Shown piece by piece: positions 20,470 to 61,694 of a DNA stretch of 64,000 nt. Under the pieces are notes generated by a model that saw only the letters and a program-made list of their open reading frames with translations, was not told where the DNA came from and made no database searches. The stretch covers positions 40,548,001 through 40,612,000 of the forward strand of contig OX597839.1 in assembly GCA_951406725.2 (NCBI GenBank), read 5' to 3'. Each line of letters begins with the position of its first letter. The stretch's first letter is position 1. Source of the DNA: Octopus vulgaris (lineage: Eukaryota). A program made the translations under genes and the position numbers.

Positions 20470-21290
20470 AATTTTTAAAAAATTTTTATCTAGTTTCAGC
20501 TCACAAGCTGTGGCCATGCTGGGGCACCGCCATTTAGTGTTGCTATATGATTTTACTTCACGAATGTTTTTTTAGCAATTGCCATTTGGTGCATGAGAGA
20601 GTTCGATGCAGCTGCCCTCATCTGCACCTCCTGCCGTGAAGTTGGTTCATCTGGGACACCTGACAAGAAGAGATCCAGTTTTATTTTAAAGACATCTGCA
20701 TCCACCCCATGCAGGTCTCTTAGGTTCTTCGGGAGGATATTGAAGAGCTGTGGGCCTCGGAAGCCCAGGCTATCACAGTATCTTGTCCTACATCTTGATG
20801 GCAAATTTGGAGTCCTTGGCACTATGCAGTGGCGCCCAGTTCTAGTATTTGTGTAACTCTCGATGCCAAAGTTTAGAACAAGTCCTTCCAGCATCTTCCA
20901 GATGTATATTATGGCATATCTTTCTCGCCTACGCTCTAAGGAATAGAGTCTCAATCTCTTGAGTCTTTCCCAATAGCTTATATGCTGCACAGAGGCTATC
21001 TTCTTCGTGTAGCTTCGTTGGATCGCCTCAAGTTCTGTGATTAACTTGACACTGGATGGTGACCATAGCTGAGAGCAATAGTCAAAGTGGCTTAGGACAA
21101 GTGTCCTCCAGAGGACCATCATGGTTTCCTGGTCTCTTGTTCTAAAGGTTCTAAGAATCCATCCGGTCAGCCGCCTACATTTCATTGCCAATTTAGCAAC
21201 ATGCACATGAAAGGTTGCATCATCACTCATGTAAATACCCAGGTCTCGCACTGACTGTGCCTCTGGGATTGCAATCCCTCCGGGTCCAAT
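20470..21290 (-). mobile_element. 5'-truncated CR1-group LINE (ORF2 C-terminus, ORF 20553-21251, short 3' UTR)
   Basis: RDLGIYMS...DYCSQLWSP...LEAIQR...SYWERLKRLRLYSLERRRER...FNILP...FKIKLD is the CR1/L2-group post-RT motif series; stem-loop 3' tail. Confidence 0.92.
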
Positions 21291-21851
21291 GTTACTTATT
21301 TTTTTTTACATCTTTACTTTTTTATTATATTTTATATTTATTATTATCCTTTATAATTATGTTTAAATTTATATATATTTTTTTTTCTTTTTTGTGATCC
21401 CGACTTCATTAAAGTTTCACCCCCTTCCCTTCCTTTCCTCTTTCTCTCAACATCCAATTCCTTCCCTTATATGAAGTAATCTACCCAGTATTCATTCTTT
21501 ACCGAGTGAAGAAACGGTATGGACGATTTGTTTTGGAGTCTCACAATACCATGTACGCCTATGAGGATTTACTTTCCCAATGAAACCCGGTTTTTTCCAA
21601 AACTTTTTCTCAAACCTGCTATAATGTGATACATGTCTTTGGTGTGGTAATTGTACGCGGCTGAAGAAGGCCTTTGATCTACCTGTTGTATCAATTATGC
21701 ATTGATATAAGTTGTTCAATAAAGCCCGAAACATATGTACCGCAAAATCCTTTGCGTCCTGATTTTCTTTTGATACATATATCCTATCACCTATACCACT
21801 AGCTGGCATATACAGGTGCTTACATTTATCAAGTATTCACTGAATTTATTG

Positions 21852-28160: not shown

Positions 28161-28544
28161 AGGTATCGCTCATTAGCACTGAACCTGAAAGCACGTGGTT
28201 GCCAATATAGCTTCTTGAGCACACAGTCGTGCCTGCGCCGAAAAGAAATAAAACAGGAAGAGAGAAATAATGAATGCAAACCAGAAAACGTTACAAAATG
28301 AAGGGAAGAAATGAAGAAAGAAGGAAGGAAGGAAAGAAAGAACGAAAGAAAGGAAAGAAAGAAGGAGAGAAAGGAAATGTAAGAGCTATTAGACTTTTTT
28401 AATAACACCTCTATAACTACAAAATGCCTAACCGGGTCTGAACTAGATGTCCGAGAAGAATGGATCTTATTTAAGACGAGCAATGGCGGCTTTACGTGAC
28501 ACGGTTCAGTGAATAGATCTGATACATACACACGCACACAAACA

Positions 28545-29011
28545 CGCACATATATATATACGTACAGCCACATAAGCATATACACACACACACACACTCA
28601 CATACACGCACACATATATACGTACAGACACATAAGCATGTACACACACACACACACTCACATACACGCACACATATATACGTACAGACACAAAGGCATA
28701 TACACACACACACACTCACATACACGCACACATATATACGTACAGACACATAAGCATATATACACACACACACACACTCACATACACGCACACATATATA
28801 CGTACAGACACATAAGCATATACACACACACACACACACACTCACATACACGCACACATATATACGTACAGACACATAAGCATATACACACACACACACA
28901 AACACTCACATACACGCACACATATATACGTATAGACACATAAGCATATACACACACACACACACTCACATACACGCACACATATATACGTACAGACACA
29001 TAAGCATATAT

Positions 29012-48243: not shown

Positions 48244-48623
48244 TGGAGGCGCAATGGCCCAGTGGTTAGGGCAGCGGACTCGCGGTCATAGGATCGCGGA
48301 TTCCCAGACCGGGCGTTGTGAGTGTTTATTGAGCGAAAACACCTAAAGCTCCACGAGGCTCCGGCAGGGGATGATGGTGATCCCTGCTGTACTCTTTCAC
48401 CACAACTTTCTCTCACTCTTACTTCCTGTTTCTGTTGTACCTGTATTTCAAAGGGCCGGCCTTGTCACTCTCTGTGTCACGCTGAATATCCCCGAGAACT
48501 ACGTTAAGGGTACACGTGTCTGTGGAGTGCTCAGCCCTCTTACACGTTAATTTCACGAGCAGGCTGTTCCGTTGATTCGGATCAACCGGAACCCTCGTCG
48601 TCGTAACCGACGGAGTGCTTCCA
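48244..48623 (+). mobile_element. SINE family B
   Basis: Full length; TSD approximately ATTATGTATATG. Confidence 0.9.
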
Positions 48624-52721: not shown

Positions 52722-53097
52722 GAAATAATATTGAGCAGAAAAGAGTTATGGTATTTAAAGATTTGTAAAACATACACGCGTTTCAATAAAATGTCGAGAT
52801 AATTATATAACAATTAAAGAAGATTTATGCAGCCATGCACCTTAACTCATCAGTCCTGTAATAAATATACCTATTTAATGCGGAACACTAATAAGCTGGA
52901 ATACATAATGTTTCAACAGCAATTATGTAATTGTTTCGGCAGCTTGTTGAAACAGGTGTATGTCCTACAAAACACCATATCTGTTTGCTTGTTTGTTGAT
53001 GTCCGGTTTGTTCAAGATTGGATACTGGAGTGGAGTGAAGAACACACCACTGAGGCAGATATTTCGTTACGGGTCACATTTTACGTACACACATATG

Positions 53098-53483
53098 TGG
53101 AAGCACTCCGTCGGTTACGACGATGAGGGTTCCGGTTGATCCGATCAACGGAACAGCCTGCTCCTGAAATTAACGTGTAAGTGGCTGAGCACTCCACAGA
53201 CACGTGCACCCATAACGTAGTTCTCGGGGATATTCAGCGTGACACAGAGAGTGACAAGGCCGGCCCTTTGAAATACAAGGTACAACAGAAACAGGAAGTA
53301 AGAGTGAGAGAAAGTTGTGGTGAAAGAGTACAGCAGGGATCACCACCATCCCCTGCCGGAGCCTCGTGCAGCTTTTAGGTGTTTTCGCTCAATAAACACT
53401 CACAACGCCCGGTCTGGGAATCGAAACCGCGATCCTACGACCGCGAGTCCGCTGCCCTAACCACTGGGCCATTGCTCCTCCAC
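53098..53483 (-). mobile_element. SINE family B
   Basis: Full length; TSD GTACACACATAT. Confidence 0.9.
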
Positions 53484-53794
53484 TGTACACACATATATAC
53501 ATCGTATGTATATGTATTTATGCCTGTTCGTTACGATCCCTAGAATAAGTTCGGTGGTGAGTGTATGACTGCATGTCTGTGTGTCCGTGTTTGCATGTAA
53601 ATGTATATGCACATGCAGACATACATACGCACGTATATATATCTACTTATATCTATAAACAATTATATAGATACACACACACACACACACACACATATGA
53701 GTGTGTTTGTTGTGTGTTTGTTTTTTGTGATTGCACGTACTTACATATCGTTATATTTCTAAAGAGTTTTTCAAATTCCAAAGCGGATAATGTG

Positions 53795-56700
53795 TCATCA
53801 CCACATTGTCCGCCCGTGGTCGAGACAATGGAATTTACCATGCTACACCAGACTTCACGGTCCATCGTGGCATTACGGAGGTCCTGTTGCTGGATGCCTG
53901 TATCCCTGGAGATTACATCAGGGTAGGAGAGTGTGCGCCCTCTGGTATTGCGAGTAGATGGCTTCTAGTGGAGACGAGTAGATTTTACCTCTTTTTCAGC
54001 TCTACAACAATGTCCAGCAAACTGGACTCTCTTACCTTTCACAAGAGATGACACAGGTGCTAGTTTCCCATATATTTGCATTTTGGTTGGATGGCGCTTC
54101 CAGGAGAGATTTTGAGCTCTCATAAGGAGGTGAGTGTAGGTTCCTGTTGCTGGATGCCAGTATCCCTGGAGATTACATCAGGGTAGGAGAGTGTGCGCCC
54201 TCTGGTATTGCGAGTAGATGGCTTCCAGAGGAGAAGAGTAGAAATTACTTCTTTTTCAGCTCTGCAACAATGTCCAGCAAACTGGACTCTCCTACCTTTC
54301 ACAAGAGATGAAACAGGTGGTAGTTTCCGATATATTTGCATTTTGGTTGGATGACGCTTCCACGAGAGATTTTGAGCTCTCATAAGGAGGCGAGTGTAGG
54401 TTCCTGTTGCTGGATGCCAGTATCCCTGGAGATTACATCAGGGTAGGAGAGTGTGCGCCCTCTGGTATTGCGAGTAGATGGCTTCCAGAGGAGAAGAGTA
54501 GAAATTACCTCTTTTTCAGCTCTACAACAATGTCCAGCAAACTGGACTCTCCTACCTTTCACAAGAGATGAAACAGGTGGTAGTTTCCGATATATTTGCA
54601 TTTTGGTTGGATGACGCTTCCACGAGAGATTTTGAGCTCTCATAAGGAGGCGAGTGTAGGTTCCTGTTGCTGGATGCCTGTATCCCTGGAGATTACATCA
54701 GGGTAGGAGAGTGTGCGCCCTCTGGTATTGCGAGTAGATGGCTTCCAGTGGAGACGAGTAGATTTTACCTCTTTTTCAGCTCTACAACAATGTCCAGCAA
54801 ACTGGACTCTCCTACCTTTCACAAGAGATGACACAGGTGGTAGTTTCCCATATATTTGCATTTTGGTTGGATGGCGCTTCCACGAGAGATTTTGAGCTCT
54901 CATAAGGAGGTGAGTGTAGGTTCCTGTTGCTGGATGCCTGTATCCCTGGAGATTACATCAGGGTAGGAGAGTGTGCGCCCTCTGGTATTGCGAGTAGATG
55001 GCTTCCAGTGGAGACGAGTAGATTTTACCTCTTTTTCAGCTCTACAACAATGTCCAGCAAACTGGACTCTCCTACCTTTCACAAGAGATGACACAGGTGC
55101 TAGTTTCCCATATATTTGCATTTTGGTTGGATGGCGCTTCCAGGAGAGATTTTGAGCTCTCATAAGGAGGTGAGTGTAGGTTCCTGTTGCTGGATGCCAG
55201 TATCCCTGGAGATTACATCAGGGTAGGAGAGTGTGCGCCCTCTGGTATTGCGAGTAGATGGCTTCCAGAGGAGAAGAGTAGAAATTACTTCTTTTTCAGC
55301 TCTGCAACAATGTACAGCAAACTGGACTCTCCTACCTTTCACAAGAGATGAAACAGGTGGTAGTTTCCGATATATTTGCATTTTGGTTGGATGACGCTTC
55401 CACGAGAGATTTTGAGCTCTCATAAGGAGGCGAGTATAGGTTCCTGTTGCTGGATGCCTGTATCCCTGGAGATTACATCAGGGTAGGAGAGTGTGCGCCC
55501 TCTGGTATTGCGAGTAGATGGCTTCCAGTGGAGACGAGTAGATTTTATCTCTTTTTCAGCTCTACAACAATGTCCAGCAAACTGGACTCTCCTACCTTTC
55601 ACAAGAGATGACACAGGTGGTAGTTTCCCATATATTTGCATTTTGGTTGGATGGCGCTTCCACGAGAGATTTTGAGCTCTCATAAGGAGGTGAGTGTAGG
55701 TTCCTGTTGCTGGATGCCTGTATCCCTGGAGATTACATCAGGGTAGGAGAGTGTGCGCCCTCTGGTATTGCGAGTAGATGGCTTCCAGTGGAGACGAGTA
55801 GATTTTACCTCTTTTTCAGCTCTACAACAATGTCCAGCAAACTGGACTCTCCTACCTTTCACAAGAGATGACACAGGTGGTAGTTTCCCATATATTTGCA
55901 TTTTGGTTGGATGTCGCTTCCAGGAGAGATTTTGAGCTCTCATAAGGAGGCGAGTGTAGGTTCCTGTTGCTGGATGCCTGTATCCCTGGAGATTACATCA
56001 GGGTAGGAGAGTGTGCGCCCTCTGGTATTGCGAGTAGATGGCTTCCAGAGGAGAAGAGTAGAAATTACCTCTTTTTCAGCTCTACAACAATGTCCAGCAA
56101 ACTGGACTCTCCTACCTTTCACAAGAGATGAAACAGGTGGTAGTTTCCGATATATTTGCATTTTGGTTGGATGACGCTTCCACGAGAGATTTTGAGCTCT
56201 CATAAGGAGGCGAGTGTAGGTTCCTGTTGCTGGATGCCTGTATCCCTGGAGATTACATCAGGGTAGGAGAGTGTGCGCCCTCTGGTATTGCGAGTAGATG
56301 GCTTCCAGTGGAGACGAGTAGATTTTACCTCTTTTTCAGCTCTACAACAATGTCCAGCAAACTGGACTCTCCTACCTTTCACAAGAGATGACACAGGTGG
56401 TAGTTTCCCATATATTTGCATTTTGGTTGGATGGCGCTTCCACGAGAGATTTTGAGCTCTCATAAGGAGGTGAGTGTAGGTTCCTGTTGCTGGATGCCTG
56501 TATCCCTGGAGATTACATCAGGGTAGGAGAGTGTGCGCCCTCTGGTATTGCGAGTAGATGGCTTCCAGTGGAGACGAGTAGATTTTACCTCTTTTTCAGC
56601 TCTACAACAATGTCCAGCAAACTGGACTCTCCTACCTTTCACAAGAGATGACACAGGTGGTAGTTTCCCATATATTTGCATTTTGGTTGGATGTCGCTTC

Positions 56701-57570
56701 CAGGAGAGATTTTGAGCTCTCATAAGGAGGCGAGTGTAGGTTCCTGTTGCTGGATGCCTGTATCCCTGGAGATTACATCAGGGTAGGAGAGTGTGCGCCC
56801 TCTGGTATTGCGAGTAGATGGCTTCCAGAGGAGAAGAGTAGAAATTACCTCTTTTTCAGCTCTACAACAATGTCCAGCAAACTGGACTCTCCTACCTTTC
56901 ACAAGAGATGAAACAGGTGGTAGTTTCCGATATATTTGCATTTTGGTTGGATGACGCTTCCACGAGAGATTTTGAGCTCTCATAAGGAGGCGAGTGTAGG
57001 TTCCTGTTGCTGGATGCCTGTATCCCTGGAGATTACATCAGGGTAGGAGAGTGTGCGCCCTCTGGTATTGCGAGTAGATGGCTTCCAGTGGAGACGAGTA
57101 GATTTTACCTCTTTTTCAGCTCTACAACAATGTCCAGCAAACTGGACTCTCCTACCTTTCACAAGAGATGAAACAGGTGGTAGTTTCCCATATATTTGCA
57201 TTTTGGTTGGATGGCGCTTCCACGAGAGATTTTGAGCTCTCATAAGGAGGTGAGTGTAGGTTCCTGTTGCTGGATGCCTGTATCCCTGGAGATTACATCA
57301 GGGTAGGAGAGTGTGCGCCCTCTGGTATTGCGAGTAGATGGCTTCCAGTGGAGACGAGTAGATTTTACCTCTTTTTCAGCTCTACAACAATGTCCAGCAA
57401 ACTGGACTCTCCTACCTTTCACAAGAGATGACACAGGTGGTAGTTTCCCATATATTTGCATTTTGGTAGGATGGCGCTTCCACGAGAGATTTTGAGCTCT
57501 CTCTTGAGCTCTCATAAGGAGGCGAGTGTAGGTTCCATCCAAACGCCTCTCAAGCTTCAAGGATAATGTG
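53795..57570 (-). mobile_element. 5'-truncated RTE-like LINE 3' end with internal tandem amplification
   Basis: Collapsed reading TLSLKLERRLDGTYTRLLMRAQNLSWKRHPTK...RRVQFAGHCCR...LLLWKP...RGRTLSYPDVISRDTG...DREVW matches the RTE-type post-RT C-terminus. Confidence 0.88.
53882..57536. repeat. Tandem array of 14 x 260-bp units derived from LINE coding sequence
   Basis: TCCTGTTGCTGGATGCC recurs every 260 bp from 53882 to 57262; the last unit has a 12-bp duplication. Confidence 0.97.
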
Positions 57571-57914
57571 TAAAGACATAAACCTATAGAAACTCTGATG
57601 TAGCTATCAGGAGATGCACAAGAACTCTGCCCTGAGTGCACTGCTTTCTGTAACAGAAACAGATGTAAGTAAAAAATAGTTGAATACGTAATTGTTGTTC
57701 CATTGTTAGTTGTTTAATTAACTTCATATACTCATTCGAATGAATGTATATATGTGTGTATATGTATGTATGTATACATACATACAGACATATATAGGTA
57801 CACACACATATATAGAAAGGTAGATACTTACATATGTACATACATATATATATATATATATATATAAACATATATATATATAAACATATATATACATATA
57901 TAAACATATATATC

Positions 57915-58242
57915 ACCATCAAAATACAGGACTAGATACTGCAACAGCTTGGGTTTCAGAGGGCCACAGCTCTTTAACATCCTCCCTAAATTCCTGAGAG
58001 ACTTGCACGGTGTGGATATGGGTTTCTTTAAAACTAAACTGGATCTCTTCTTGTCGGGGATCCCAGATGAACCTACCTCACGACAGGAGACGCGGATGCG
58101 GGCAGCGGCATCGAACTCCCTTGTTGACCAAGTGCCACGTATCAGAGGTGGATTCACATATTAGTGTAGCTCATTCAGCGGTGGTGCCGTAGCATGGCCG
58201 CGGCCTTCGGGCTAAAACATTTTTAAGGATTTTAAGGATTTA
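57915..58242 (+). mobile_element. CR1-group LINE 3' end related to 20470-21290
   Basis: GFRGPQLFNILPKFLRDLHGVD...FKTKLDLFLSGIPDEPTSRQETRMRAAASNSL; (TTTTAAGGA)n tail. Confidence 0.9.
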
Positions 58243-61300: not shown

Positions 61301-61694
61301 GTGGAGGCGCAATGGCCCAGTGGTTAGGGCAGCGGACCCGCGGTCGTAGGATCGCGGTTTCGATTCCCAGACCGGGCGTTGTGTGTGTTTATTGAGCAAA
61401 AACACCTAAAGATCCACGAGGCTCCGGCAGGGGATGGTGGTGATCCCTGCTGTACTCTTTCACCACAACTTTCTCTCACTCTTACTTCCTGTTTCTGTTG
61501 TACCTGTATTTCAAAGGGCCGGCCTTGTCACACTCTGTGTCACGCTGAATATCCCCGAGAACTACGTTAAATGTACACGTGTCTGTGGAGTGCTCAGCCA
61601 CTTACACGTTAATTTCAGGAGCAGGCTGTTCCGTTGATTCGGATTATCCAGAACCCTCGTCGTCGTAACCGACGGAGTGCTTCCATTCCATTCC
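61301..61694 (+). mobile_element. SINE family B
   Basis: Full length; (TTCCA)n tail; TSD ATTCATTTAGGGG. Confidence 0.92.

What the first reader, a model, noticed from the sequence alone, without database searches (positions are those of the whole stretch)
53882..57536. LINE coding sequence converted in place into a 14 x 260-bp satellite
Both unique flanks continue the same RTE-like reading frame (…ERRLDG at the right, DL…DREVW at the left), so the array grew inside one truncated insertion. On the minus strand the junction joins CAACAGGA(CC) to GATGGAACC through a GGA microhomology. Units are nearly identical, so amplification is recent. It is a clear snapshot of satellite birth from a retroelement.
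Basis: partly seen in the sequence, partly recalled or inferred. Interest (0 to 1): 0.7.

Follow-up and report, generated by a model that had tools for sequence, protein, structure and literature searches.

The report
Satellite seeds hopping between neighbouring LINEs
This 14-unit repeat sits inside one dead jumping-gene copy, and its exact repeat joint also occurs in four other copies, all on the same chromosome; two other joints cluster the same way on other chromosomes, so such joints likely pass between nearby copies during DNA repair and seed new repeat arrays.

Summary
The array is real in the assembly: 14 units of 260 bp inside one 5'-truncated RTE-type LINE with an 11-bp target-site duplication, joined through GGA, with a 780-bp higher-order period. 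Growth to 14 units happened in place. But the junction is not unique: it occurs at four more loci with unrelated flanks, all on contig C26, while the family's 3,000+ ordinary copies are genome-wide. Two other junctions in this family repeat the pattern: 15 of 16 loci on C28; 29 of 45 on C30 plus 8 in one 5-Mb cluster on C27. Dimers are chimeras of different copies, lineage alleles sit within 12 bp of the junction, and flanks match local ordinary copies. Most likely, junctions are copied into nearby existing LINE copies by homology-directed repair (0.55); the rival is a template switch onto local RNA during retrotransposition (0.22). It works like Rsp-like spreading into 1.688 in Drosophila, with dispersed LINEs as the landing network.

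The parts
53785..53795 (.). Target-site duplication, left copy (11 bp)
53796..53881 (-). 3' end of the LINE: decayed (GAT)n tail and last codons of the ORF (DLRNATMDREVW...)
   Evidence: 95-96% identical to family copies
53882..57533 (-). Array of 14 units, each element nt about 2898-3160 of about 3250, downstream of the RT domain
54142..54144 (-). First of 13 junctions; 3-bp microhomology (GGA on the element strand), repeated every 260 bp
54662..57001 (-). Three 780-bp higher-order repeats (B-B-A, units 4-12); units 4=10, 8=11, 9=12 identical
57502..57513 (-). 12-bp local insertion (short duplication) in unit 14
57534..57558 (-). 25-bp non-repeated LINE remnant up to the 5' truncation point (ERRLDG codons)
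57561..57571 (.). Target-site duplication, right copy (11 bp)

Best explanation
The array is an internal tandem repeat of a dead RTE-type LINE copy whose junction is shared with four other copies on the same chromosome, and it likely arose in three steps: a rare microhomology event made the junction once, homology-directed repair likely copied it into nearby pre-existing copies of the family, and unequal exchange likely expanded it here to 14 units. Shown: the anatomy, the shared junction, the confinement to one chromosome, the same pattern for two more junctions, chimeric dimers, in-place homogenisation. Inferred: single origin of each junction, donor-to-recipient transfer at the DNA level (strand invasion with template switch, or circle reintegration), nuclear proximity as the reason for the confinement, and that transfers happened while copies were still near-identical.
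For: Junction 1: 18 exact matches, 13 here and 5 at 4 other loci, all on C26; same with one mismatch and by BLAST, 18 of 40 scored hits full-length, all C26. The 4 loci share no flank; 3 of 4 have their own tail, TSD (8, 9, 11 bp) and 5' end. C26 holds 3 of 124 and 3 of 80 family hits in untruncated lists, so 4 of 4 has p about 2e-6; 6e-4 if only C24-C30 were available. An SNP-defined sub-lineage is spread over C1-C10 in the first 100 of 180 hits. Replicates: junction 2 (234 bp) 45 loci, 29 on C30, 8 on C27, median nearest neighbour 0.11 Mb; junction 4 (271 bp) 15 of 16 loci on C28. Transfer of a patch, not of whole elements: lineage-wide alleles lie within 12 bp of the junction (J2 position 10: 31/45 after the junction, 2/27 in the 5'-most unit; J4: 13/15 and 14/15 before the junction), and no 3'-flank allele stands out against small-chromosome copies; 3'-flank haplotypes match ordinary small-chromosome copies (TGG 16/42 vs 7/17); monomer-equivalent lengths match too (median 404 vs 427, p 0.44); the two units of dimers differ by 3.6% and often disagree at subfamily sites (for example 10 of 19, 7 of 24); for J2, rare alleles next to the junction are shared within 1.5 Mb (14 of 41 pairs vs 4.7 expected, p 0.0009) but 3'-flank alleles are not (1 of 17 vs 1.9). 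Three junction fragments lack a 3' end (L033, L217, L220), so junction DNA also moves without normal retrotransposition. Precedent: PMC7403614 (passages).
Against: No orthologous monomer allele was seen, so acquisition after insertion is inferred. Local allele sharing was not found for junction 4 (1 local pair in each of 4 regions, as expected by chance), was only borderline on the 5' side of junction 2 (p 0.07; within C30 p 0.51), and junction-1 loci are no more alike near the junction than far from it (3.3% vs 2.5%). Pairs in these tests are not independent. Dimer units are still somewhat more alike within than between loci (3.6% vs 4.5%). All transfers look old, which also fits a link to reverse transcription. 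One junction-1 locus is 35-40 Mb from the others. Junction 3 (140 bp) is spread over at least eight contigs from C14 to C31 in the first 100 of 300 matches, and another duplication junction (L126) is single-copy, so confinement and spread are not universal.
Confidence: 0.55

Rival explanations
1. Template switch during retrotransposition: the RTE enzyme starts on an ordinary master RNA at a new site, switches onto a junction-bearing nascent transcript made nearby in the same chromosome territory, and so inserts a chimeric multimer in one step.
For: Predicts the same chimeras, own tails and TSDs (42 of 45 J2 loci and 16 of 16 J4 loci reach the element's 3' end), and explains why transfers date to the family's active period. 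An earlier unchecked note of this scan describes an RTE copying a neighbouring gene's unspliced RNA (e1-8670349; a lead only).
Against: Needs abundant, correctly oriented transcripts of dead copies (untested). No 5' or 3' transduced flank among 45 J2 loci. The length signal that first favoured it (0/30 vs 12/45 long 5' extensions, p 0.001) vanished with a matched comparator (0/30 vs 1/20, p 0.4). Tail-less fragments need a repair route anyway.
Confidence: 0.22
2. Mobile multimer: whole junction-bearing copies retrotranspose from a local source and land near it.
For: Complete insertion hallmarks around each multimer; clustering at the Mb scale.
Against: 3' flanks carry six haplotypes in local proportions and no lineage allele; dimer units disagree at subfamily sites; ordinary sub-lineages disperse genome-wide; no long junction-bearing copy among the 66 loci examined; for junction 1 the extra unit shifts the ORF frame.
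Confidence: 0.08
3. Linkage or introgression: each junction lineage was once genome-wide in another population, and only one chromosome block entered this genome.
For: Would give chromosome-wide confinement, including the C26 locus at the far end; small chromosomes have a different family haplotype mix from C1/C2 (TGG 7/17 vs 2/58).
Against: Needs a separate event for C26, C28 and C30/C27; does not explain chimeric dimers or Mb-scale allele sharing; loci are old enough for recombination to have broken linkage (inference).
Confidence: 0.05
4. One reading: independent in-situ duplication at this locus only (or repeated independent origins at a hot spot).
For: In-place growth is supported; internal duplications do arise singly in this family (L126).
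Against: Same junction at 4 more loci, none among 3,000+ copies on other chromosomes; units of dimers are not near-identical as a local duplication would leave them.
Confidence: 0.05
5. Assembly artefact (array inflated or junction fabricated).
For: No read-level confirmation was obtained.
Against: 10 distinct units with an ordered 3-unit period, private alleles, intact TSD, no N in the window, and the same junction in unrelated flanks.
Confidence: 0.03

Closest known systems
Rsp-like satellite spreading into 1.688 clusters on the Drosophila simulans/mauritiana X (PMC7403614; abstract and passages read)
   Same: A rare microhomology junction is shared by clusters along one chromosome; spread is into loci that already hold the homologous repeat; adjacent repeats are phylogenetically discordant; interlocus conversion or eccDNA proposed; local growth by unequal exchange with higher-order units.
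   Different: Here donor and recipient are dispersed single copies of a LINE, each with its own TSD, not satellite clusters; the unit is a piece of the recipient itself; at least three lineages each have their own chromosome; no synteny, Hi-C or eccDNA data here.
LINE-derived satellites: PROsat and Pvc20 (L1 ORF2), chicken HinfI (CR1), cetacean common satellite (L1 3' end) (as listed in review PMC9659126; passages read)
   Same: Tandem unit made from LINE sequence, including coding sequence.
   Different: Those are large arrays recognised by similarity; here arrays have 2 to about 30 units, still inside TSD-bounded insertions, and the parent family is RTE-type (the review has 0 occurrences of 'RTE').
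Templated insertions and internal duplications at L1 integration (10.1101/2024.08.27.596794; passages read)
   Same: Rearranged LINE insertions with duplicated segments or short templated pieces.
   Different: Those duplications accompany 5' inversions and are short (median 22 bp) and unique; here they are direct, 140-271 bp, and the same junction recurs at many loci.
RTE (RTE-BovB type) LINEs of cephalopods (PMC10294476, passages; PMC13282606, first third read)
   Same: About 3.2-kb element, one endonuclease + RT frame, short tandem-repeat tail.
   Different: Clade placement not tested with a tree of named references; the passages read do not mention internal tandem lineages.

Membership tests
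RTE-clade LINE (parent element) | Single ORF with apurinic-type endonuclease and RT, no ORF1 (definition recalled) | tested here: met
   Pfam PF03372/PF14529 and PF00078 in long copies; homologues are 950-1060-aa EN+RT proteins on mostly 3.1-4.7-kb contigs; copies examined have frameshifts
RTE-clade LINE (parent element) | Length about 3.2 kb | tested here: met
   About 3,250 bp in L116, L117, L141; 3.2 kb given for RTE-BovB in PMC10294476
RTE-clade LINE (parent element) | Short tandem-repeat 3' tail, 5' truncation, TSD (recalled) | tested here: met
   (GAT)n tails; TSDs of 9-13 bp in many ordinary copies
RTE-clade LINE (parent element) | RT groups with named RTE elements in a tree | not tested
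   No named RTE reference among the 120 listed homologues; Atlas look-up unavailable
TE-derived satellite DNA | Head-to-tail units homologous to a TE segment | tested here: met
TE-derived satellite DNA | Concerted evolution / higher-order repeats within the array | tested here: met
   Private type-B alleles in 9 of 14 units; lag-3 period p 0.00165
TE-derived satellite DNA | Long arrays (tens of kb or more), high abundance | tested here: not met
   3.65 kb; 18 junctions genome-wide. It is a seed-sized array.
Rsp-like/1.688-type homology-guided spread | Same microhomology junction at many loci of one chromosome | tested here: met
Rsp-like/1.688-type homology-guided spread | Sequence next to the junction discordant with the rest of the recipient | tested here: met
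   (junctions 2 and 4); for junction 1 is weaker
Rsp-like/1.688-type homology-guided spread | Recipient repeat present before the junction arrived (synteny across species) | not testable with these tools
   No related genomes held
Rsp-like/1.688-type homology-guided spread | 3D contact between loci or presence on eccDNA | not testable with these tools
   No Hi-C or circle data
Mobile multimeric retroelement | Daughters share the source haplotype outside the duplicated part | tested here: not met
Mobile multimeric retroelement | Genome-wide dispersal like the parent family | tested here: not met

The most novel reading that the evidence does not exclude
An RTE reverse transcriptase uses nascent transcripts of dead copies in its own chromosome territory as switch templates, so retrotransposition itself becomes chromosome-local and each small chromosome breeds its own LINE-derived satellite lineage.
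Probability: 0.22. Interest if true: 0.88.

Novelty: new variant of a known kind. Interest (0 to 1): 0.7.

Why it matters
How a new tandem unit gets from one locus to many is an open step in satellite evolution, and sequence exchange between dispersed dead transposon copies is hard to see because point variants recur. These junctions are near-unique tags on TSD-bounded insertions, with at least three independent lineages and 66 mapped loci. They allow a direct test of whether dead LINE copies form a proximity-limited exchange network that seeds satellites, and whether the carrier is DNA repair or reverse transcription. If exchange is this local, dating and subfamily trees of LINE copies on small chromosomes are biased too: 9 of 29 copies examined on C22-C30 were multi-unit against 0 of 60 on C1/C2 (multi-unit loci had more chances to be picked).

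Tried and rejected
Reads: one search listed no RNA holder. The two raw-read runs gave 0 and 7 reads, no test. No contig bridging the junction was among the listed pieces in four contig sets; contigs drop rare links, so this says nothing. One contig of run X6 covers 53705-53800 (flank, TSD and 4 tail bases, 2 differences), a hint that the insertion is shared with organism C; the junction there is unknown. A genome-wide search for tandem copies with a gapped pattern could not be run, so the list of junction lineages is incomplete: junctions 2-4 were found by chance through one allele. Segmental duplication rejected: no shared flanks. Back-splicing rejected by eye: the junction has one base more than an AG|GT join would give. 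Window array as donor of the other junction-1 loci after its private alleles arose: rejected. 151C as a lineage marker: rejected, it is the family majority. 5'-length argument for an RT origin: withdrawn after a matched control. TGG flank haplotype as a lineage marker: withdrawn. Same-chromosome sharing of rare alleles among ordinary copies: weak (38 of 92 pairs vs 32% expected; 9 of 75 within 1.5 Mb vs 3.4, p 0.04). C26 ends show no telomere array and no gap in 108 kb at the start and 10 kb at the end, so misplacement of the 52-kb locus is neither shown nor excluded. The unit RNA folds somewhat better than shuffles (z -2.7, 60 shuffles); not used. Literature: ten searches showed no listing on chromosome-confined tandem lineages of a LINE; three returned nothing; subscription papers and supplements were not seen. 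piRNA role: not tested.

Full report
1. Observation. The window is G000:C26:40548001-40612000 in a 2.8-Gb, microsatellite-rich animal genome, probably an octopus (inferred, not tested). Thirteen 260-bp units start at 53882 and a 14th of 272 bp ends at 57533; 18 columns vary among the first 13, mean identity 97.4%. Both flanks continue one minus-strand reading frame, and the junction uses a GGA overlap whose two sides lie 260 bp apart in natural long copies. The whole insertion (53796-57558) is bracketed by an 11-bp TSD. Units fall into type A (2, 3, 6, 9, 12; close to the family) and type B (derived), giving a 780-bp period (p 0.00165). The type-B signature occurs 9 times in the genome, all here, so homogenisation and most growth were local.

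2. Parent family. Long copies are about 3,250 bp with endonuclease and RT domains in one frame and a (GAT)n tail; homologues are about 1,040-aa EN+RT proteins. This is RTE-type architecture (definition recalled; 3.2 kb for RTE-BovB in PMC10294476, passages). The unit is nt 2898-3160, after the RT domain. Two alleles of one 24-mer give 2,696 and 458 exact hits genome-wide.

3. The junction is shared and confined. An exact 25-mer across the junction has 18 matches: 13 here and 5 at four other loci (C26: 0.053, 35.45, 35.72, 38.98 Mb). One-mismatch and BLAST searches add none elsewhere (the one C24 hit is a single-piece copy). The loci share no flank. Three are separate insertions with tail, TSD (8, 9, 11 bp) and own 5' end, holding 2.5, 2 and 2 units; the fourth is a 321-bp tail-less fragment with an 80-bp target duplication in an intron of an SF3B4-like gene. 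C26 holds 3 of 124 and 3 of 80 family hits in untruncated lists; an SNP-defined sub-lineage of 180 copies is dispersed (first 100 listed over C1-C10). Units at different loci are 3.2% apart against 2.8% for ordinary pairs: the spread is as old as the family's activity, not recent.

4. Replicates. Copies fetched for a rare allele revealed more junctions in the same part of the element. Junction 2 (234 bp): 92 matches at 45 loci, C30 29, C27 8 (30.2-35.3 Mb), C24 3, C8 2, C14, C19, C25 one each (the C19 and C25 hits are one-mismatch and could be independent); 42 of 45 have a neighbour within 3.5 Mb; 2 to 18 units; 42 of 45 reach the 3' end and 19 of 45 have an exact TSD of 8 bp or more by script, with no shuffle control. 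Junction 4 (271 bp): 16 loci, 15 on C28, all with 3' ends, 8 of 16 with such a TSD. Junction 3 (140 bp): 300 matches, the 100 listed all on C14-C31, clustered on C29 and C30 but not confined. A 600-bp duplication on C11 is single-copy. Multi-unit copies are concentrated on small chromosomes: 9 of 29 examined on C22-C30 (one of 30 hits not examined) against 0 of 60 on C1/C2 (biased upward by sampling).

5. What is transferred. Alleles that mark a lineage lie within 12 bp of the junction and fade at the same unit position on the far side; none stands out in the 3' flank once small-chromosome copies are the control. 3'-flank haplotypes and monomer-equivalent lengths match ordinary copies on small chromosomes. 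First and last units of dimers differ by 3.6% (4.5% between loci) and often disagree at subfamily sites; they share 6 of 72 rare alleles (24 dimers with enough overlap). For junction 2, rare alleles next to the junction are shared within 1.5 Mb (14 of 41 pairs, 4.7 expected), those of the 3' flank are not (1 of 17, 1.9 expected). Against this: junction 4 shows no such local excess, junction 1 no near-versus-far difference, and the tests use dependent pairs. No transduced flanks were found.

6. Mechanism. Shown: anatomy, sharing, confinement, chimerism, local growth. Inferred, 0.55: a junction forms once by microhomology; a break in another young copy is repaired on a junction-bearing neighbour, which adds a unit; mismatch intolerance (established knowledge, recalled) limits this to the time when copies were near-identical; unequal exchange then grows some loci. 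Tail-less junction fragments (3 of 66 loci; 270, 290 and 32 kb from another junction locus) point to a repair route. Rival, 0.22: template switch of the RTE enzyme onto a local nascent transcript, which predicts the same chimeras. Whole-element local hopping (0.08), introgression (0.05), origin here alone (0.05) and artefact (0.03) fit worse. This locus could be the founder of junction 1; its 3' flank is the most diverged of the four (4 of 78), a weak hint.

7. Known systems. It works like Rsp-like entering 1.688 clusters on the Drosophila X (PMC7403614, abstract and passages): two defining features met, two not testable. LINE-derived satellites are known (PMC9659126, PMC12628747, passages), but this array is seed-sized. 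It is not a mobile multimer by the two features tested. Ten searches listed no paper on chromosome-confined tandem lineages of a LINE; the library lacks most subscription papers, and PMC7004042 and 10.1101/2023.04.24.538079 were seen as listings only.

8. Verdict. Observation confirmed; interpretation partly supported. A LINE-derived array alone would be ordinary (about 0.35). The replicated, chromosome-confined spread of junctions between dispersed LINE copies is a new variant of a known process with a direct test at hand: interest 0.7. Everything rests on one assembly without read support.

Noticed in passing
L033:4826-5305 (G000:C26 about 35.717 Mb): The tail-less junction fragment duplicated 80 bp that include the splice acceptor and first 40 nt of an exon of an SF3B4-like gene (E 2.5e-38), leaving a decoy acceptor upstream.
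   Followed up: partly
L148:417-1654 (G000:C26 25.09 Mb): Four 3' ends of the LINE in tandem, separated by (TA)n and by two TTAGGG-type repeats, as if the enzyme jumped between templates.
   Followed up: no
L263 (C30 9.68 Mb), L192 (C27 31.75 Mb), L189 (C27 30.195 Mb): Larger arrays of the same kind: about 30 units of 140 bp, 5 x 234 bp followed by at least 11 x 140 bp, and 18 x 234 bp.
   Followed up: partly
L163 (C11 82.69 Mb), L261 (C29 13.05 Mb): Tandem arrays of whole 3' ends including the tail (303-bp x at least 7; three pieces with 438-bp repeats); genome-wide spread not tested.
   Followed up: no
L126 (C11), L127 (C12), L246 (C24), L262 (C30), L195 (C27): Further direct internal duplications with other junctions; only L126 was searched (single-copy).
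   Followed up: partly
L244-L268 vs L056-L115: Ordinary copies on small chromosomes have fewer long members (1 of 20 vs 12 of 45 over 612 bp) and a different haplotype mix (TGG 7/17 vs 2/58) than those on C1/C2.
   Followed up: partly
L121:3946-8387 (C11 about 4.39 Mb): A 67-bp x 66 array, 99% matches, abuts the 5' end of an ordinary copy; the unit is not LINE-derived.
   Followed up: no
L209 (C30 11.485 Mb): A junction-2 insertion with a long target duplication of about 45 bp with a few mismatches.
   Followed up: no
window 53093-53483, 48244-48623, 61301-61685: Copies of a young interspersed repeat of about 390 bp (SINE-like; 96-97% to a copy in L035).
   Followed up: no
window 20556-21305, 57910-58160, 30568-30983, 28524-29025: Fragments that read like another LINE's RT region and a Tc1-type transposase (motifs recalled), and a 60-bp x 8 minisatellite.
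   Followed up: no
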